From an uncultured delta proteobacterium (GTDB lineage: Bacteria; Myxococcota_A; Polyangia; Polyangiales; Polyangiaceae), in the NCBI GenBank assembly GCA_963850305.1, contig CAWKKR010000005.1, positions 96,001 through 160,000 of the forward strand: DNA of 64,000 bases, given 5' to 3'. Both the position numbers and the translations under genes were made by a program. Below, piece by piece: positions 49,821-58,076 of the stretch. Positions within the stretch are counted from its first letter, which is position 1. Every line of letters begins with the position of its first letter. Under the pieces are notes generated by a model, which was given only the letters and a program-made list of their open reading frames with translations, ran no database searches and was not told the DNA's origin.

Positions 49821-50444
49821 CTATGTCGGCGGCATCAGGCGCTTGCGAAACTCGTCGGTCGTATTGACGTGCGGAAACGGCTCCTCCGGAACCGGGAGAC
49901 CGAGTCCGGTACAGAGCGGTCCCCAGCCGTCCGCAGCGCGCCACTCGACCAGTCGATTTGCCGGGATGCGACGGCGCACTTCCTCGGTGTGCCGCTCGAA
50001 CGCCGCGATCGAGGCGGCTCGATTGTCCACCGCGCCCTCCACGAAGCGCCGGTTCAGGAGATCGGTCACCATGCCCAGCCAGGGCGTGTTCTCGCCTCGG
50101 GCGATCTGCCGACGCAATCCTTCGAAGATGGTCGCGTCCGCGCTCTTCCACCAGCTCGCCGCGTCCCTGAGCGAGAGAAGGACGATGGCGTCCGGAAAGG
50201 CTTCCGCCATTTCCTCGTAGAACGCGGACGCCGGCCAATCGACGGCGGCGACGTAACCGGAGAGCAGCGCCGGAAAGTCGACCTTTTCGCCGCGCGCGGC
50301 CGCGTGCCAGACCGGCACGTGTTCCGGGTGCGGGAACACTTCCACCATGTGATAGCAGGGGCCACCGAGGAGCCGCTCGAGCGCAAGCTTCAGAGAGTGA
50401 GTTCCAGTCCGTCCTAGCCCAGCGCCGACTACACGCATCGCCAT
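49821..50444 (-). CDS. sulfotransferase-family P-loop protein
   Basis: VVGAGLGRTGTHSLKLALE...PCYHM, AAVDWP, GWGPLC...PFPHVN. Confidence 0.88.
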   Translation of the reverse strand: MAMRVVGAGLGRTGTHSLKLALERLLGGPCYHMVEVFPHPEHVPVWHAAARGEKVDFPALLSGYVAAVDWPASAFYEEMAEAFPDAIVLLSLRDAASWWKSADATIFEGLRRQIARGENTPWLGMVTDLLNRRFVEGAVDNRAASIAAFERHTEEVRRRIPANRLVEWRAADGWGPLCTGLGLPVPEEPFPHVNTTDEFRKRLMPPT

Positions 50445-50579
50445 TTATGGAGCCTCCAGCGCAGGACGGTATCCGTTCGCATCGCGTGCCACAACCCGAG
50501 AAAAAGTCGCGCGCGCCGTCACCTGCGCGATGGACTGGAGCTTCGATCCATTGCCGCCTCTCTGGCGCTCGCGTACTGG

Positions 50580-51521
50580 ATGCGGCGAATGAAGCCGAGC
50601 CCGCGCGCCCCTGAACGCATCGTCTCGTTGCTGGCGAGCGGCACGGAGCTCGTGTGTGCGCTCGGGTTGGGGGACAAGCTCGTCGGACGATCGCACGAGT
50701 GCGATCATCCGGAGTGGGTCAAGCGCCTGCCGCAGGTGAGCCGGCCGACGTTCGACGTGACCGGCTCGAGCCACGACATCGACGAGCTCGTGCGGCAGCG
50801 CCTGCATGCGGGCGACCCTCTTTACGTCGTCGACGAGGCGCTGCTGACGTCGCTCGCGCCGGACGTCGTCATCACGCAGACGCACTGCGAGGTCTGCGCC
50901 GTGAGTCCCGCCAATCTCGCGCACGGCGGCGCGCCCCGGCTCGTGCGTGAGCGCGTCGTCGCGCTTCACGCGAGCACGCTCGACGGCATCCTGGACGATT
51001 TCATGGACGTGGCGCGAGTGCTCGCCCGGGTGGACGCCGGACGCGCGCTCGTCGAGCGAGAGCGCGCCCGTCTCGCAGCCGTCGAGGCGCGCACGCGCTC
51101 GCTCGAAAGGCCGCGCGTCGTCTGTCTCGAGTGGGCGGACCCCGTCTTCGCGATGAGCAACTGGGGACCGGAGCTCGTCGAGTTCGCAGGGGGCGAGAAC
51201 ACGCTCGGCGCTCCCGGCGCCCATTCCACGACGATTCCCTGGAACACCGTTGCGGATGTGGACCCCGATGTGCTCGTGCTGGCGCCCTGCGGGTTCGGTC
51301 TCGAGCGCGCGCTCCGTGAGATGCCGCTGCTCGAGCGCCAGCCCCGGTGGGGCGAGCTTCGAGCGGTGAAAGAGAAGCGCGTGTTCGTCGCGGACGGCAA
51401 TCTCTACTTCAACCGCTCCGGTCCCAGCGTCTTCGAGACCGCCGAGATTCTCGCGGAGATCCTTCACCCCGGGGCGTTCCCCCCGGAGCACGAGGGGCGC
51501 GCCTGGAAGTCCTGGGGCTGA
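50580..51521 (+). CDS. BtuF-like cobalamin/Fe-siderophore-binding protein
   Basis: RIVSLLASGTELVCALG...VGRSHECDHP, DGNLYFNRSGP. Confidence 0.85.
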   Translation: MRRMKPSPRAPERIVSLLASGTELVCALGLGDKLVGRSHECDHPEWVKRLPQVSRPTFDVTGSSHDIDELVRQRLHAGDPLYVVDEALLTSLAPDVVITQTHCEVCAVSPANLAHGGAPRLVRERVVALHASTLDGILDDFMDVARVLARVDAGRALVERERARLAAVEARTRSLERPRVVCLEWADPVFAMSNWGPELVEFAGGENTLGAPGAHSTTIPWNTVADVDPDVLVLAPCGFGLERALREMPLLERQPRWGELRAVKEKRVFVADGNLYFNRSGPSVFETAEILAEILHPGAFPPEHEGRAWKSWG

Positions 51522-51587
51522 GCCTGTGCCACGCTTGTCGTGGGCTCGTCGATGCCCTAGGCACTCCTCTCAACCAGGGAGAGTGAC

Positions 51588-52235
51588 ATGAGCAAAGTCG
51601 CGGTATTGGGTTCCGGGCAGGTCGGGCAGGTCCTTGCGGATGGCTTCCTGAAGCACGGGCACGCCGTGATGCGAGCGAGTCGGGATCCGGCGAAGCTCGC
51701 GGCGTGGAAAGCGGGAGCAGGAGCGAAGGCGAGCACGGGCACCTTCGCGGAAGCGGCCAAGTGGGGCGACCTCGTCGTGCTCGCCGTGAAAGGCGCCGCT
51801 GCGGAGCAGGTCGTCGAGCAAGCGGGGGTGGGGAACCTCGCCGGCAAGGTCGTTCTCGACACGACCAACCCCATTGCCGAATCGCCGCCGCAAAATGGCG
51901 TCCTCCGCTTCTTCACGAACCTCGACGAATCGCTCATGGAGCGACTTCAGAAAAAAGCCCCCGCCGCACATTTCGTGAAGGCCTTCTCCTGCGTGGGGAG
52001 CGCGCTCATGGTCGACCCCGTCCTTTCCGGTGGACCTCCGACGATGTTCATCTGCGGCAGCAACCCCGGAGCAAAGGCGACGGCGCGTGAGCTCCTGACC
52101 CAGTTCGGGTGGGAAACGGCGGACATGGGTGCGATAGAAGCCGCGCGCGCCATAGAGCCCTTGTGCATCCTCTGGTGCATCCCCGGCATGACCGGCGGCG
52201 GCTGGACCCACGCCTTCAAGCTCCTGCGGTCCTAG
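51588..52235 (+). CDS. NADPH-dependent F420 reductase-like dinucleotide-binding protein
   Basis: VAVLGSGQVG, KVVLDTTNP, VKAF, ARAIEPL. Confidence 0.88.
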   Translation: MSKVAVLGSGQVGQVLADGFLKHGHAVMRASRDPAKLAAWKAGAGAKASTGTFAEAAKWGDLVVLAVKGAAAEQVVEQAGVGNLAGKVVLDTTNPIAESPPQNGVLRFFTNLDESLMERLQKKAPAAHFVKAFSCVGSALMVDPVLSGGPPTMFICGSNPGAKATARELLTQFGWETADMGAIEAARAIEPLCILWCIPGMTGGGWTHAFKLLRS

Positions 52236-52378
52236 ACCAACCCTCGCTCCACGCGAGCCGACAGGCAGGGCCCCGTCGGCCGCCGAGACCACGATCGGCC
52301 AAAAAAGGGCGCGTGAGAAATGCCGGCATGGCCGGCGAGGGCCGCTCGCAGATAGCGAACGACGCGATGCGGGCTAGT

Positions 52379-52426
52379 CAAAGAGTCAAAGAGCCAAAGA
52401 GCCAAAGAGCCAAAGAGCCAAAGAGC
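52379..52426. repeat. 8-bp tandem repeat (CAAAGAGC)x6
   Basis: Six contiguous units, the first being CAAAGAGT. Confidence 0.92.
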
Positions 52427-52498
52427 CCTAGTAAATGGCCGCCTCGCCAGGCTACGCTCGAGAGTCCGTCTTTAGCATCGGATCAAGGAGCCCTGGCA

Positions 52499-53080
52499 AT
52501 GCACAGAGTGATGGTGGGAGCGGTACTGGCGAGTGTGATTGGGGGCACGTGGGGATGCGTGCCGCGTCTAGCAACAGAGGAGGAACGCGTATTTTCCGCG
52601 CGATCCGTCGTGAATGTGGCGCCCGGGTCGTCGCCGCCGCTCGTGGGGACGTATGATTTCGACTTGCTCGGCGATGCGCAGGGACAAGCCTGCGCGGAAT
52701 GGGGCGACATGAACAAGCTCGGATTCCGGCAGATCCTCGTCGACGGACACCCGGCCATCTACACGGCCGCGGTCGCTGGCGCGACCTTCGACAGCGACGA
52801 TCCCCTCGTCCGGCAAGCGGAGTCGGCGGCCGTGTTCAACGCGCTCAGCAAGCTGAACGGCGCAGATCTGATGTTCGTCACGCGATCGTCGTTGACCTCG
52901 GACACGGCGGAAAAGCTCTGCGCGACGGTCTGGGGGCAGATCGTTCGATTGAAGAAGGGGCCAACGCTGTCGCCGAAGGCCATCGCAGAGCTGCCGGCGA
53001 CCATGCCGTCGCCGTCGCCGGCGCCAGGCACGGCACCGCCGCCCCCGCCGGCCGCCGCGCCCGCGCCCGCCGCTCAGTAG
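52499..53080 (+). CDS. hypothetical lipoprotein with Pro/Ala-rich tail
   Basis: AAGGAG ribosome-binding site; signal peptide ending in TWGC. Confidence 0.7.
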   Translation: MHRVMVGAVLASVIGGTWGCVPRLATEEERVFSARSVVNVAPGSSPPLVGTYDFDLLGDAQGQACAEWGDMNKLGFRQILVDGHPAIYTAAVAGATFDSDDPLVRQAESAAVFNALSKLNGADLMFVTRSSLTSDTAEKLCATVWGQIVRLKKGPTLSPKAIAELPATMPSPSPAPGTAPPPPPAAAPAPAAQ

Positions 53081-53210
53081 ATGCCCATCGGCGAGAGCGC
53101 CTTCCCCGAAGCATGAAGCTCGGGTCGTCGCGTGGACGGTGGAGTCGAGTGTATCCTGCCGCGGCGTCGGGAACGAGGTCGGCCGTGACTTGGTGCCAAG
53201 AACCCGTTCA

Positions 53211-53340
53211 GTAGTTCCGCATCGACGAGCAGCGTCGTCCCCGAGGAATGAAAGCGGTGCGGAACTACCGAGCGCAGCGAGTACCGGGGGGAGGGGTTGC
53301 GTAGCAAGCCCCGGGGGGCGGGCAACGCCCCCCTTTCCTA
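53211..53340 (+). repeat. GTAG-hairpin repeat element, copy 3 (head plus 1 divergent unit)
   Basis: Head at 53211-53268; unit ends CCCCCTTTCCTA at the IS110 junction. Confidence 0.85.
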
Positions 53341-53344
53341 GTAG

Positions 53345-53455
53345 ATGGACCCGGAGCCCTGCGAGCACCCCGAATTGTGACCACGGGTCGAAAGATTCCG
53401 GGAGCACGCCTAGTAGACTTCGATGACGAGGGCTCCTCTCGACGCGCCGAAAGGA
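53345..53455 (+). ncRNA. candidate bridge RNA (IS110 left non-coding end)
   Basis: Stem GGAGCCCT (53353-53360) with AGGGCTCC (53429-53436), nested hairpins, CCTAGTAGA at 53409-53417 matching the junction; function inferred from IS110 biology. Confidence 0.6.
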
Positions 53456-53459
53456 GGAG

Positions 53460-54692
53460 ATGGTCATGGAAGTCATGTATCCCCGTTGCGCGGGCCTCGA
53501 CGTCCACAAGGATAGCGTCGTTGCCTGCGTGCGCTGCGTCAGCGAACCAACGCGGCGCGAGGTCCGAACGTTCGGCACGACCACACGTAGCCTCTTCGAG
53601 CTGGCGGAATGGCTCGAGGAGCACGGCGTGACCCACGTGGCGATGGAGGCCACCGGCGTGTACTGGAAGCCGGTCTGGCACATGCTCGAAGGGAGCTTCG
53701 AACTCGTGCTCGCGAACGCCCAGCACATTCGCAACGTGCCAGGGCGCAAGACCGACGTGAACGACGCGACGTGGATCGCCGATCTGCTCGCGCACGGGCT
53801 GATCCGCAGCAGTTTCGTGCCTCCTGCGCGAATCCAGGAGCTGCGCGATCTCACTCGAACGCGCAAGCAGCTCGTGCGAGAAATCGCCCAGCACACGCTG
53901 CGCATACAGAAAACGCTCGAGGACTCGAACATCAAGGTCGCGAGCGTCCTGTCCAGCGTGCTCGGGACCAGCGGCCGGGCGATGCTCGCCGCTCTCATCG
54001 CCGGAGAAGATGACCCCGAGCGCCTTGCCGATCTCGCGGTCGGTACCGCGCGCAAGAAGAGGGCCGACTTGATCGAAGCGCTGCGCGGGCGGGTTACCCC
54101 TCATCACCGAGCCATGCTGAAGCTGCATCTCGGCGTCATCGGCTCGCTCGAAGGGGCCCTGGCCGAGATCGATGCAGCTGCGGGAAAAGCGCTGGAGCCG
54201 ATCCGGGCGCACGCCGAGATCCTGACGACGATGCCGGGAGTGAGTGACATCGTCGCGAACGTGATCGTGGCGGAGATCGGCGTCGACATGTCGCGCTTCC
54301 CGTCTGCGGGACACCTCGTGTCCTGGGCCGGCCTCTGCCCCCGCAACGACGAGAGCGCCGGCAAGCGTCGCTCGACGCGCGTCCGCAAGAGCGCCAACTG
54401 GCTCAAGACGACGCTCGTCACATCCGCCTGGGCCGCGGTGCGCACGAAGGAAAGCTACCTTCGAGCCCAGTTTCTCCGGCTCAAGTCCCGCCGTGGAGCA
54501 AAGAAGGCGATCTTGGCCGTCGCCGCATCGATGCTCACCGCCGCCTTCTACATGCTCCGCGACGGCACTCCCTACCGCGACCTCGGACCCCATCACTTCG
54601 ACCGCCGCGACCAGAGCAAGACCATCAAACGCCTCGTCCGCCGCTTGACCGACCTCGGCTGCGAAGTCGAGATCAAACCTCATGCGGCGTAG
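53460..54692 (+). CDS. IS110-family DEDD recombinase/transposase
   Basis: AGLDVHKD, VAMEATGVYW, GRKTDVNDA, LVSWAGLCPRNDESAGK. Confidence 0.96.
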   Translation: MVMEVMYPRCAGLDVHKDSVVACVRCVSEPTRREVRTFGTTTRSLFELAEWLEEHGVTHVAMEATGVYWKPVWHMLEGSFELVLANAQHIRNVPGRKTDVNDATWIADLLAHGLIRSSFVPPARIQELRDLTRTRKQLVREIAQHTLRIQKTLEDSNIKVASVLSSVLGTSGRAMLAALIAGEDDPERLADLAVGTARKKRADLIEALRGRVTPHHRAMLKLHLGVIGSLEGALAEIDAAAGKALEPIRAHAEILTTMPGVSDIVANVIVAEIGVDMSRFPSAGHLVSWAGLCPRNDESAGKRRSTRVRKSANWLKTTLVTSAWAAVRTKESYLRAQFLRLKSRRGAKKAILAVAASMLTAAFYMLRDGTPYRDLGPHHFDRRDQSKTIKRLVRRLTDLGCEVEIKPHAA

Positions 54693-54701
54693 AGCTTCCT
54701 A

Positions 54702-55111
54702 GTAGTTCCGCACCGACGAGCACCGTCGTCCCCGAGGGATCAAAGAGCTGCGGAACTACGCGAGCGCAGCGAGCGCGCCGAAGGCGGCGGGGGAGCGGTC
54801 GCGGAGCGAGCCGCGGGGGTCAAGACCCCCTTGCGAACACGAGCCCGCCGAAGGCGGCGGGGGAGCGGTTGCGAAGCAAGCCGCGGGGGTCAAGACCCCC
54901 TTGCGAACACGAGCGCGCCGAAGGCGGCGGGGGAGCGGTCGCGAAGCGAGCCGCGGGGGTCAAGACCCCCTTGCGAACACGAGCGCGCCGAAGGCGGCGG
55001 GGGAGCGGTCGCGAAGCGAGCCGCGGGGGTCAAGACCCCCTTGCGAACACGAGCCCGCCGAAGGCGGCGGGGGAGCGGTCGCGAAGCAAGCCGCGGGGGT
55101 CAAGACCCCCC
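54702..55111 (+). repeat. GTAG-hairpin repeat element, copy 4 (head plus 5 units of 70 bp)
   Basis: Head at 54702-54759; period 70 (54781, 54851, 54921, 54991, 55061). Confidence 0.93.
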
Positions 55112-55148
55112 TTGAGCAGCCCTGGCCGGGTAAGGACCTCGCTGCAGT

Positions 55149-56150
55149 TCAGTACGGCGCCTCGCCGATGTAGTTGCCGGCGGGGCTGTAGTTGCAGATC
55201 CAGATGTCTTCTTGGAACGCGCCGTCCTGGCAGGTCGAGACGCCGCAGCCGAGCTGGGTGCTGTTCCGCCAAACGATCTGCGTGTAATGGCCGCACCCGT
55301 CGCTGTTGAGCGCCTCGTAGCACGTCGGATTGCATTGCTCGGTCCCGGAGATCGTCCCGTACGTCCAGCACGACTCCTCCGCGGCCCAGCCGCTCACGGC
55401 TTGCTGCGCCGTACTTCCGTTGCCGCCGGCATACCTGAAGACGGCGAGGTTTTCTCCGTACCCCACCTGCTCGAGTTCTTGCTCCGTGCGGTGGTGCGGG
55501 CTGGCGCAGTCGGTCTGCGCGAGGCTATCGGCCCATTGCTGTGCATACGCGGCGATCGTCGGTGACCACGTGAGCGGTGGCAACGGTGTCGAAGTCTGGA
55601 CCGCCGCGCGCACGGCGTTGTGTGCGGCCGTGATACCGGCGAGCCGTCCCGTTTCGGGATCACCGCCACTCGACCCGCCGGTGCCGGCACCCCCCGCCCC
55701 AGCGCCACCGTTGCCGATCGCGCCACCGTTGCCGATCGCGCCACCGTTGCCGATCGCGCCACCGTTGCCGATCGCGCCACCGTTGCCGGAGCCGATCGCG
55801 CCACCGTTGCCGATCGCGCCGCCGTTGCCGATCGCGCCACCGTTGCCGGAGCCGATCGCGCCACCGTTGCCGGAGCCGATCGCGCCACCGCTGCCGATCG
55901 CGCCACCGTTGCCGGAGCCGATCGCGCCACCGTTGCCGATCGCGCCGCCGTTCCCGGAGGCGTTCGCACCACCATTACCGACTGCGCCCCCGTTTCCACC
56001 GAACACCATCGCGCCGCCCTGACTTCCGTTCCCGAGTTGCGATGGCGGCGGGCTCGCGCCGTCCGCGCTGCACGCGACGGCGCCCAAAGTGCACCCGGCG
56101 GCCACTACCGCGCACCACAGTCGAGACGTCTGCGCCATCACACACCTCAT
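55149..56150 (-). CDS. CAP (SCP/PR-1) domain lipoprotein with GNGGAI repeats
   Basis: Lipobox AVAC, HNAVRA, YGENL, CGHYTQIVW, ICNYSPAGNYIG. Confidence 0.9.
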   Translation of the reverse strand: MRCVMAQTSRLWCAVVAAGCTLGAVACSADGASPPPSQLGNGSQGGAMVFGGNGGAVGNGGANASGNGGAIGNGGAIGSGNGGAIGSGGAIGSGNGGAIGSGNGGAIGNGGAIGNGGAIGSGNGGAIGNGGAIGNGGAIGNGGAIGNGGAGAGGAGTGGSSGGDPETGRLAGITAAHNAVRAAVQTSTPLPPLTWSPTIAAYAQQWADSLAQTDCASPHHRTEQELEQVGYGENLAVFRYAGGNGSTAQQAVSGWAAEESCWTYGTISGTEQCNPTCYEALNSDGCGHYTQIVWRNSTQLGCGVSTCQDGAFQEDIWICNYSPAGNYIGEAPY

Positions 56151-56315
56151 GGCAAAAGAAGAGGCCCGACTCTAGCGAGCCATCGCTTGATCCGACATCG
56201 ACAAATCCAATTTTGCTTCGGGACGACAGTGACGGCGGAGACGTTTCAGCGGAGCGCAACGCGAGGGCGTGCTGGTGTGAAATGCCGTCCGAAGTGCAAT
56301 CCCGGGAGCCGGTGG

Positions 56316-57782
56316 CTAGCGAATCCAACCAGCGCGGTAGGCGTATCCCTCGAGGTAGAGTTCGTCATGGACGTCGACCTCCGGATCGGAGGAGAGCTTC
56401 GCCCAGATGCCCTGCAGCGTGCTCGCCGACAGTACGCCTTGATTCGATAGCCAGGCACCGGCGGAGAAGATCGTCGCGGCGGAGGAGCGGAAATCCGGCA
56501 CGTCCCTGTAGCCTTCGACATAGGCCGCAACGTCCTGCCCGCCGTAAGTGCGGACCTGAAATGCGGCAAGGTAGTTGGCCACGTTGAAGTCGAGCGGCGC
56601 CCCCGCCGTGGTCAACATCGCGACCAGGGCCGACGAACCCGCGGCGAGCCCGGCTGCGACCGATGTGGAGAGCGCCGCGGTCGCAAACGACGCGAGGTAA
56701 AGGTCGGGCTGGTCATCGTCGCCGAGTTCCGTCTGGTCGACCTCCTGGTATCGCCGGGCCCAGTCGCCGGGAACGGCCGGGCACGTCTCGGCGGATGACG
56801 TGGGCGTGGCGTCGGAACGGCACTCGATCCATGAGGCCGCCTCCGTGCACGGGGCGAGAACGCCCGCAAGCTGATCGATCGTCTCGGTAGCGGGGGCCGC
56901 GAGTGCCGCGTCGCACGCGGTACTCAGCAGATCGAGAATGCCGTCGGGATTGCCGTCGACGAGCGCAGTGGCGGTATCTGCGTTGAGGTAAACGGCCTGG
57001 TTGGCGAGGACCTGGTCCGCCGTCGTGCTTTCGCCGACCGAAATCATCGACGCGGGCAGCGGGTTTCCGAGCGCGGCGTGCAGTGGCGCCGACGCGGTGG
57101 CGTCGAGCGCGACGTTCACCGCGTCCCCTGCGATGAGATCCTCGCCGGAGACGGCGTGATGAGCCAGCCCGACGAGCTCTCCGTCGTCGTCGAGCAAAGG
57201 CGAACCGCTGTTGCCGGGAAGGATGTACGCGTCGGACCGGACCCAGTCCCCTTCGACGTCGTAGACGATGCCGTCGGTCCATTTTTTCAACCCGCCCTCG
57301 GGGTGCCCGACGATGGTGACGTGGCTCCCGAGCAGAGCCGTCGGGGAATGGAGCGCCCAGCGTAGATAGTCGGGTGTGGAGAGCATGGCTCCGGCGCGCG
57401 TGTCGAAGAGCTGAACGACCGCCATGTCGAGGCCCTCGTCGACGGACGTCGGGATCCCGAACACTCGTTCCGCCTGCGGCGGCGGTGAGCCCCGCTGGTA
57501 GAGCCGCGTGATCTCGAGCGAGCAGCCCTCGATGGGACAAATCGGCACCCCGAGGACGTGGTTGTTGGTCAGGAGAAGACCCGTCGGAGAGATGAACGAG
57601 CCCGTCGCCACCTGACCCGAGGTCCCGACCCGGACGACTGCGCGCGCGGCCGTCCGAATCGCGCTGGGCGCCGTCTCGACGTCGTCGAAGTGCGGCAACC
57701 TCGTCGATGCCGCAGGGCTGCACGCGCACATGCCGAGTGCCGAGACGAGCCGCCACCGACCCGCGCGTCGACGCTGCTGCAT
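56316..57782 (-). CDS. trypsin-like serine protease, probable lipoprotein
   Basis: ATGSFIS...LLTNNHV, LDMAVV, PGNSGSPL. Confidence 0.82.
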   Translation of the reverse strand: MQQRRRAGRWRLVSALGMCACSPAASTRLPHFDDVETAPSAIRTAARAVVRVGTSGQVATGSFISPTGLLLTNNHVLGVPICPIEGCSLEITRLYQRGSPPPQAERVFGIPTSVDEGLDMAVVQLFDTRAGAMLSTPDYLRWALHSPTALLGSHVTIVGHPEGGLKKWTDGIVYDVEGDWVRSDAYILPGNSGSPLLDDDGELVGLAHHAVSGEDLIAGDAVNVALDATASAPLHAALGNPLPASMISVGESTTADQVLANQAVYLNADTATALVDGNPDGILDLLSTACDAALAAPATETIDQLAGVLAPCTEAASWIECRSDATPTSSAETCPAVPGDWARRYQEVDQTELGDDDQPDLYLASFATAALSTSVAAGLAAGSSALVAMLTTAGAPLDFNVANYLAAFQVRTYGGQDVAAYVEGYRDVPDFRSSAATIFSAGAWLSNQGVLSASTLQGIWAKLSSDPEVDVHDELYLEGYAYRAGWIR

Positions 57783-58076
57783 GAAAGGAGATTGTACGGG
57801 AAGCTTTTCCCCTCGTCGCGGGTTGTTCGGATATGCGCCCGCGACCCCTGCGAGAGTGCGAACGAGCCGTGGGCGTGGCCGCCCTCGTCGCGATCACGCT
57901 GGGCGCGCTGCCGAAGTCCTGGCAGTTGCCAGCCGGCATGTTGCTCGTCGCCGCTGCCATTGGCGCCATGCTCGGCGGGTTTCGGTTCGGGGCGGATCGG
58001 CCCGTTCGTCCGCGGGGCCTCGGTGGTCACCCGCACTCGCGCCGACGCTGAAGGGCCGGCCGGCGCGAGAGGTGGG

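What the first reader, a model, noticed from the sequence alone, without database searches (positions are those of the whole stretch)
53345..53459. Unusually compact candidate bridge RNA
Seen: only ~115 nt separate the core from the start codon, and the right end is ~3 nt plus core. The left end folds into one 8-bp-closed domain (GGAGCCCT/AGGGCTCC) with inner pairings (CCCGAAT/ATTCCGGG, GACC/GGTC). It contains CCTAGTAGA (53409-53417), matching the donor junction over 9 nt and the target over 8 nt. Inference: since donor and target are nearly identical, a minimal or single-loop guide may serve both, which would be useful for programmable recombination.
Basis: partly seen in the sequence, partly recalled or inferred. 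Interest (0 to 1): 0.7.

Follow-up and report, generated by a model that had tools for sequence, protein, structure and literature searches.

The report
Half a bridge RNA, hitchhiker-split
The "compact guide RNA" is only the back half of a predicted ordinary two-loop guide (bridge) RNA of an IS110 jumping gene: a 130-base hitchhiker element sits in the DNA for the front loop, at a site that matches the element's own target, which likely made a false left end and likely disables that loop in this copy.

Summary
The 115-nt stretch is real but it is not the whole left end. The IS110 transposase gene (53460-54692) has 8 copies in the genome. All 8 share about 134 more bases upstream; the true left end starts at 53081. 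In 6 of 8 copies that part joins 53345 directly, giving a 248-nt left end. In the window copy and one other, a 130-bp non-coding mini element (53215-53344) sits in between.

Across 45 related left ends there are two loops. The first guide (TCAGTAG, 53208-53214) equals the target flank in 40 of 44, with guide-blind boundaries. The second (CTAGTAG, 53410-53416) equals the element's own right end in 28 of 38 and the target in 0 of 44. The two guides are never identical (0 of 45).

What remains: a predicted ~170-nt bridge RNA with its guides in mirror order to IS621, an ISPpu9/MITEPpu9-like hitchhiker family, and a likely self-targeted insertion into the target guide. No RNA was observed. Interest 0.3.

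The parts
53074..53080 (+). Target-left flank plus AG core (TCAGTAG); true left junction of the IS
   Evidence: All 8 copies diverge upstream of here; coordinates
53081..53119 (+). True left end: about 40-bp cis box (like the ISPpu9 A box), ending in ATGAAGC whose GAAGC complements GCTTC of the right end
   Evidence: inverted-repeat pair covaries in 36 of 37 clusters
53163..53214 (+). 5' half of the predicted bridge RNA: outer stem arm and target-binding loop
   Evidence: Alignment A1, pair counts, model R1 hit of 45.9 bits
53183..53190 (+). Predicted right-target guide (reverse complement of core plus right flank)
   Evidence: Covaries with the right flank in relatives; no significant match to this genome's own mini-element right flanks
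53208..53214 (+). Left-target guide TCAGTAG; also the site in which the mini element sits
   Evidence: Equals the target flank in 40 of 44 clusters with guide-blind boundaries
53215..53344 (+).
   Evidence: Absent from 6 of 8 IS copies; identical copy at G000:C8:718271-718400; family; skipped by contigs
53345..53445 (+).
   Evidence: model R1 hit of 96.9 bits against about 169 for intact copies
53373..53376 (+). Predicted short right-donor guide (about 4 nt)
   Evidence: Pairing possible in most relatives, but the columns hardly vary and this element mismatches at +1; weak
53410..53416 (+). Left-donor guide CTAGTAG
   Evidence: Equals the element's own right end in 28 of 38 clusters, the target in 0 of 44
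53450..53459 (+). Shine-Dalgarno-like purine run
   Evidence: Sequence
53460..54692 (+). IS110 transposase/recombinase, 410 aa; D14, E63, D99, D102, S299
   Evidence: PF01548 + PF02371, NF033542 283 bits against cut-off 140, IS621 alignment, motif positions
54693..54705 (+). Right end: GCTTC repeat arm, donor-left CTAGT, AG core
54706..55110 (+). Second mini element directly after the IS, with 4.9 tandem 70-bp units (54770-55110); its right end was not resolved
   Evidence: A mini element follows the IS in 7 of 8 copies; repeats

Best explanation
The interval is the donor-loop half of a predicted ~170-nt two-loop IS110 bridge RNA whose target loop is split in this copy by a 130-bp mini element, likely inserted there by the element's own recombinase because the DNA for the target guide is itself a target-like site. 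Shown: the true left end, the insert, 8 IS copies, the mini-element family, and the covariation of each guide with its own DNA partner. Inferred: intact copies transcribe the left end, and the RNA folds into a three-way junction (outer stem, target loop, donor loop). The target loop reads TCAGT+AG; the donor loop reads CTAGT+AG at the right end; recombination occurs at the AG core. In each loop the guide that pairs with the top strand comes first and the 7-nt guide that pairs with the bottom strand comes second. That is the mirror image of IS621, equal to IS621 geometry with the site turned round (AG is CT read on the other strand). The two bases after the target guide match the first two bases of the element, as handshake guides would. 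The mini elements carry both cis ends but no gene, so they would move in trans to the same TCAGTAG sites. The split copies would keep a working transposase and donor loop but would need a target loop from the 6 intact copies.
For: All 8 copies share the upstream part; the insert is in 2 of 8. Run contigs skip the 130 bp. With guide-blind boundaries, guide 1 equals the 5 target bases before the core in 40 of 44 clusters (mean 4.89 of 5, shuffled 1.98, 0 of 5000), and guide 2 equals the 5 donor bases in 28 of 38 (4.47 against 2.60, 0 of 5000); the cross comparisons are exact in 0 of 44 and 0 of 38. There are 27 and 22 distinct guides. The right-target guide covaries at +1 to +3 (n 33, 1.64 against 0.75, 0 of 5000; 4 registers were tried). 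The handshake dinucleotide equals the element's first 2 bases in 40 of 44, including 7 non-TT cases. Structure: 91.8% of cells paired, 22 of 33 pairs with changes on both sides, 0 of 500 shuffles; slid controls 25-50%. Mini elements: 35 by a strict pattern; 24 of the 25 not preceded by another element's end have at least 5 of 7 matches to TCAGTAG; their lengths run from 130 to 630 bp. Precedent: ISPpu9 with AG core, A and B boxes and MITEPpu9 (PMC12288879), and one-sided matches that suffice for IS621 insertion (10.64898/2026.08.31.748434).
Against: No RNA was observed, so ends, strand and binding are predictions. Single-sequence folds are no more stable than shuffles (z about 0). The two target-loop helices are nearly invariant and show no two-sided changes. 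In this genome the right flanks of 18 mini elements do not match the predicted right-target guide (1.33 against 1.18 of 5; 590 of 2000), and the site inside the guide matches only on its left side. The right-donor guide cannot be tested by covariation, and this element mismatches it at +1. 50 of 68 genomic TCAGTAG sites are not followed by an element. Clusters are kin, so the permutation counts overstate. The two split copies carry an identical insert but differ at other sites, so one event or two cannot be told.
Confidence: 0.9

Rival explanations
1. One reading: a minimal single-loop RNA in 115 nt guides both donor and target because they are nearly identical.
For: The 9-mer, the duplicated 10-mer and the closing stem are real. 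IS621 donor-loop-only recognition can drive excision and insertion at donor-like half sites (10.64898/2026.08.31.748434). Two related loci lack the target loop (L129, L037).
Against: The left end extends to 53081 in all 8 copies. 103 of 124 donor-loop hits have an adjacent target-loop hit. CazIS110-1 donor-loop-only RNA was inactive (10.1101/2025.10.25.684509).
Confidence: 0.03
2. The two-loop RNA is right, but the insert reached the guide by homologous recombination or gene conversion between repeats, or is an assembly artefact, not RNA-guided self-targeting.
For: The two split copies carry a 100% identical insert yet fall on different sides of a 2-base difference that follows contigs. No laid run contig spans the insert in place. 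The genome is rich in these repeats.
Against: The insert has exact element ends and one AG core on each side, like the other mini elements. It lies at a perfect TCAGTAG, the family's preferred site. The shared sequence at the junctions is only about 5 bases, short for homologous recombination (established knowledge). It occurs in two loci with different flanks, one with no downstream mini element.
Confidence: 0.1
3. The mini element is the preferred target of the IS (a REP- or MITE-targeting IS) and not its passenger.
For: A mini element follows the IS in 7 of 8 copies and in the closest relative L042. REP targeting is known for ISPpu9.
Against: The target guide matches host DNA left of the junction, not the mini element. 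The mini elements themselves lie at TCAGTAG-like sites and carry copies of both IS ends. Only 2 of 53 anchored loci have such a box right after the right end.
Confidence: 0.08

Closest known systems
ISPpu9 and MITEPpu9 (ssr9) of Pseudomonas putida KT2440 (PMC12288879; abstract and sections 4, 13 and 18 part 1 read)
   Same: IS110 group; AG core; a left box of about 40 bp with an inverted repeat and a short right box; a gene-less partner with near-copies of both boxes that sits directly after the transposase gene in most copies (5 of 7 there, 7 of 8 here) and also alone and in tandem. The ISPpu9 cluster row in the Durrant supplement shows similar RuvC motifs by eye.
   Different: Here there are at least 35 mini elements (8 there); no antisense or partner RNA was tested; the target is a short linear site, not a known REP; the parts read do not map ISPpu9's guides or report insertion into the guide region. 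Protein identity to ISPpu9 was not computed.
IS621 bridge RNA and recombinase (PMC11208160, PMC11208158; passages and section 12)
   Same: DEDD plus serine recombinase; RNA region of about 170 nt in the left end; target loop before donor loop; 2-nt core inside each guide; handshake dinucleotide; short sub-terminal inverted repeat.
   Different: 410 aa against 326-328 aa and only distantly alike (E 1e-12); guides in mirror order (top-strand guide 5', bottom-strand guide 3'); core AG on the sense strand; the long guide is 7 nt; three-way junction; the inverted repeat is 5 bp and its left arm lies about 35 bp inside.
IS1111-group seekRNAs (ISEc11, ISKpn4, ISPa11; PMC11187229; passages)
   Same: [quoted passage not shown]
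   Different: Their RNA lies downstream of a 330-350 aa transposase with 7-17 bp inverted repeats; here it lies upstream of a 410-aa transposase, in the 395-455 aa range that the paper gives for the IS110 subgroup.
ISArsp3 family (named hits H37-H40)
   Same: Closest ISfinder-named transposase among the 40 plasmid rows listed, 44.6% identity over 99% of the query.
   Different: Its left end and guides were not examined.

Membership tests
IS110 family (bridge recombinase) | RuvC-like DEDD domain plus Transposase_20 domain with catalytic D, E, D, D and S | tested here: met
   PF01548 and PF02371, NF033542 above cut-off, D14, E63, D99, D102, S299
IS110 family (bridge recombinase) | Short core shared by target and both ends, no long terminal inverted repeats | tested here: met
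   AG core at both junctions of 8 copies; AG in all but one of the 45 clusters listed, AA in L030
IS110 group bridge RNA | Structured non-coding region in a long left end with two internal loops | tested here: met
   248-nt left end; 33-pair model, 22 pairs with two-sided changes
IS110 group bridge RNA | First loop covaries with target, second with donor | tested here: met
   40 of 44 and 28 of 38, cross comparisons 0; right-target guide
IS110 group bridge RNA | Both strands of the donor are read (left and right donor guides) | tested here: inconclusive
   Left-donor guide clear; right-donor columns nearly invariant, one mismatch in this element
IS621/ISEc21-type bridge RNA | Bottom-strand guide 5' of top-strand guide in each loop | tested here: not met
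   Order is mirrored against PMC11208160 and PMC11187229
IS110 group bridge RNA | RNA is expressed, binds the recombinase and directs recombination through a circular donor | not testable with these tools
   No RNA holder listed; no assay possible
IS1111 group | 7-17 bp sub-terminal inverted repeats and RNA downstream of the gene | tested here: not met
   5-bp repeat, 13-nt right end, RNA upstream
IS110-dependent MITE (MITEPpu9-like) | No transposase; near-copies of both IS ends; same core and target; multicopy | tested here: met
IS110-dependent MITE (MITEPpu9-like) | Forms transposase-dependent circles | not testable with these tools
   Needs junction PCR or raw reads; the laid contigs showed no such joint, which proves nothing

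The most novel reading that the evidence does not exclude
Because a mirror-order bridge RNA spells its 7-nt target plus core in its own DNA, the guide gene is a built-in target. The element's hitchhikers can knock out the target loop and leave donor-loop-only copies that still spread in trans and may steer insertion to donor-like ends, building the IS-plus-mini tandems seen here. Self-targeting of the guide would then be a natural brake on, and remodeller of, RNA-guided insertion sequences; L129 in G286, whose recognisable left end begins at the guide, would be a second case.
Probability: 0.2. Interest if true: 0.55.

Novelty: new member of a known kind. Interest (0 to 1): 0.3.

Why it matters
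The compact single-loop guide that would have been useful for engineering is not there. The family still offers a clean natural set of 27 target guides and 22 donor guides for a long-type (about 410 aa) IS110 recombinase with an AG core and mirror-order guides, plus natural minimal cargo ends (about 40 bp left, about 12 bp right). It also shows a pitfall: a mini element's end can pass for the IS boundary, and a guide template can be hit by its own recombinase, which matters when a bridge RNA is expressed from DNA in the cell being edited.

Tried and rejected
Rfam: 0 matches at E up to 1 in 50000-58000. Single-sequence folding: z about 0 for the 115-nt stretch and for the intact left end, so it was not used as support. 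No sigma-70-like promoter in 53000-53500; the best hexamer pair across an in-silico circle junction scored 7 of 12, so a junction promoter is not shown. The 9th matching base (53417) was rejected as a guide position: it equals the element's first base in only 4 of 44 clusters, and the 8th base upstream (53409) matches in 15 of 38. The '94 of 95' and '55 of 58' follow counts used boundaries set by best match to the guide, so they were replaced by the guide-blind test. Row L123 in alignment A1 has wrong coordinates: it was dropped but is included; L079 was left out of A1; L020's donor guide was mis-anchored and counts as a miss. Model R1 was trained with an intact own copy, so its scores on G000 show the split but are not independent support. 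Literature searches for self-insertion found nothing on point: 'IS110, self-targeting, bridge' gave 2 reviews, listing only; 'insertion into its own' gave 0; 'bridge RNA, RTG, LTG, reversed' gave 2, of which one was read at the word and is unrelated; 'IS110, MITE, non-autonomous' gave 15. Earlier scan notes near this place and by sequence: none.

Full report
Observation. The interval 53345-53459 precedes a 410-aa IS110 transposase (53460-54692; PF01548 and PF02371; NF033542 283 bits against a cut-off of 140; catalytic D14, E63, D99, D102, S299 by alignment to IS621). The fold is no more stable than shuffles (z 0.01) and Rfam has no match.

The boundary is wrong. The genome holds 8 copies at 99.6-100% identity. 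All 8 share about 134 further bases upstream, starting right after TCAGTAG at window 53074-53080 (one copy has an extra TAG there). In the window copy and G000:C8:718271, 130 extra bases (53215-53344) lie between. Contigs of 2 of 4 laid public DNA runs, all from one study, skip exactly these bases. A covariance model scores the 6 intact copies at 168-170 bits and splits the other two into about 100 plus 46 bits (the model was trained with one intact copy).

The insert is a hitchhiker. A loose pattern gave 72 hits, some spurious; a strict one gave 35. They begin with a copy of the IS's ~40-bp left box and end like the IS's right end; the 21 with a called right end are 130-630 bp long. Of 25 not preceded by another element's end, 24 follow a site with at least 5 of 7 matches to TCAGTAG (5 perfect, 12 with 6). 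One follows the IS directly in 7 of 8 copies. This is the arrangement described for ISPpu9 and MITEPpu9: AG core, 43- and 16-bp boxes, a gene-less partner that circularises alone (PMC12288879).

Relatives show two loops. Searches gave 138 loci. After dropping 5 own-genome duplicates, 121 had the N-terminus, 104 had 250-330 nt upstream, 69 passed motif anchors, and these fell into 45 clusters at 90% identity, 49-100% protein identity, one being an intact own copy. The 35 unanchored loci were printed; most show the same layout by eye and a few lack parts. The cross comparisons are exact in 0 of 44 and 0 of 38. The guides are identical in 0 of 45; there are 27 and 22 distinct ones. Left ends are 222-265 nt. 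On the 5' side of the first loop a segment is the reverse complement of the right flank at +1 to +3 (n 33, 1.64 against 0.75; best of 4 registers). The two bases after guide 1 equal the element's first two bases in 40 of 44, including AT, TC, TA and AC cases, as expected of the handshake guides described for IS621 (PMC11208158). A 5-bp inverted repeat between right end and left box covaries in 36 of 37. The consensus is a three-way junction of about 170 nt: 91.8% of cells paired, 22 of 33 pairs with two-sided changes, slid controls 25-50% (44 rows including the misplaced L123; without it). Kin are not independent, so the counts overstate, but the many distinct guides make shared ancestry alone an unlikely cause.

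Results against. The target-loop helices hardly vary. The right-donor guide is untestable by covariation and mismatched at +1 here. In this genome 18 mini-element right flanks do not follow the right-target guide (590 of 2000). 50 of 68 TCAGTAG sites are not followed by an element. The two split copies share an identical insert but differ at a 2-base site that follows contigs, so one event or two, or a polishing effect, cannot be told. No RNA has been seen.

Mechanism. Shown: anatomy, insert, covariation. Inferred: intact copies make the RNA, the recombinase joins donor and target at AG, and specificity here rests mainly on the 7-nt left guides. The order of guides is mirrored against IS621 (5' side pairs with the bottom strand there; PMC11208160) and equals the order reported for IS1111 seekRNAs (PMC11187229), though the RNA is upstream and the protein is of the long IS110 type. 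Since guide 1 is the target sequence written in DNA, a mini element could insert there on a one-sided match, which suffices for IS621 in vitro (10.64898/2026.08.31.748434). The split copies likely depend on intact ones: donor-loop-only RNA was inactive for CazIS110-1 (10.1101/2025.10.25.684509), while donor-only recognition drove IS621 excision. Of 124 donor-loop profile hits, 103 have an adjacent target-loop hit; of the other 21, 2 are the split copies, 2 inspected loci (L129, L037) lack the target loop, and the rest were at locus edges or were not inspected further. L129 and L037 are single partial copies in draft genomes and are leads only.

Novelty. Two-loop bridge RNAs, IS110 hitchhiker MITEs and tandem growth of IS110 loci (10.64898/2026.08.14.744561) are in print. 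Mirror order in a left-end RNA and insertion into the element's own guide were not found in searches. [quoted passage not shown] Other notes of this scan mention mirror-order guides and elements inside guide genes (unchecked).

What was read. PMC11208160: passages, section 12, supplement search. PMC11208158, PMC11187229, 10.1101/2025.05.14.653916, 10.64898/2026.03.19.712850: passages. PMC12288879: abstract, sections 4, 13, 18 part 1, passages. 10.64898/2026.08.31.748434 and 10.64898/2026.08.14.744561: abstract and section 8, plus passages of the latter. 10.64898/2026.10.21.760802: passages and section 8. 10.1101/2025.10.25.684509: first fifth and passages. PMC13626964: abstract.

Verdict. The compact single-loop RNA is an artefact of a nested insert. 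The locus is a well-supported new member of a known kind, with two modest points of interest: mirror-order guides and a likely self-targeted insertion. Interest 0.3.

Noticed in passing
L019:1440-1510: A relative with the left box joined directly to codon 11 of the transposase, lacking the whole RNA region: a natural deletion that marks the minimal left end.
   Followed up: no
L129 (G286:C184, about 7470) and L037 (about 1370-1500): Relatives with a donor loop but no target loop; in L129 the recognisable left end begins at the target guide.
   Followed up: partly
L087: A 94%-identical relative whose target guide reads TTAGTAG and whose left flank looks like a mini element's right end: possibly re-aimed at the hitchhiker's end.
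   Followed up: no
G000:C1:765206-765326: Orphan target-loop remnant joined to a short decayed transposase-like piece.
   Followed up: partly
G000:C8:1022309-1022660 and C7:290986-291390: Head-to-tail tandems of mini elements; the third unit in C8 has a left box close to the IS's own.
   Followed up: partly
window 53248-53254 and 54739-54745: Two variants of the mini element's left box; the variant right end TTTG occurred only with the ATCAAA variant (5 of 5), as the inverted repeat would predict, but that variant also pairs with TTTC in 13.
   Followed up: partly
window 53345-53346, 53081-53082, 53417: This element and two close relatives start with AT, not TT, and their target-loop handshake changed with it; the donor-loop handshake base A now matches the own donor, which is inhibitory in IS621 and might favour the TT-starting mini elements.
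   Followed up: partly
window 52379-52427: 6.1 tandem copies of an 8-mer upstream of the gene next to the IS.
   Followed up: no
window 35602, 58936: Further mini-element right ends on the minus strand of the window.
   Followed up: partly
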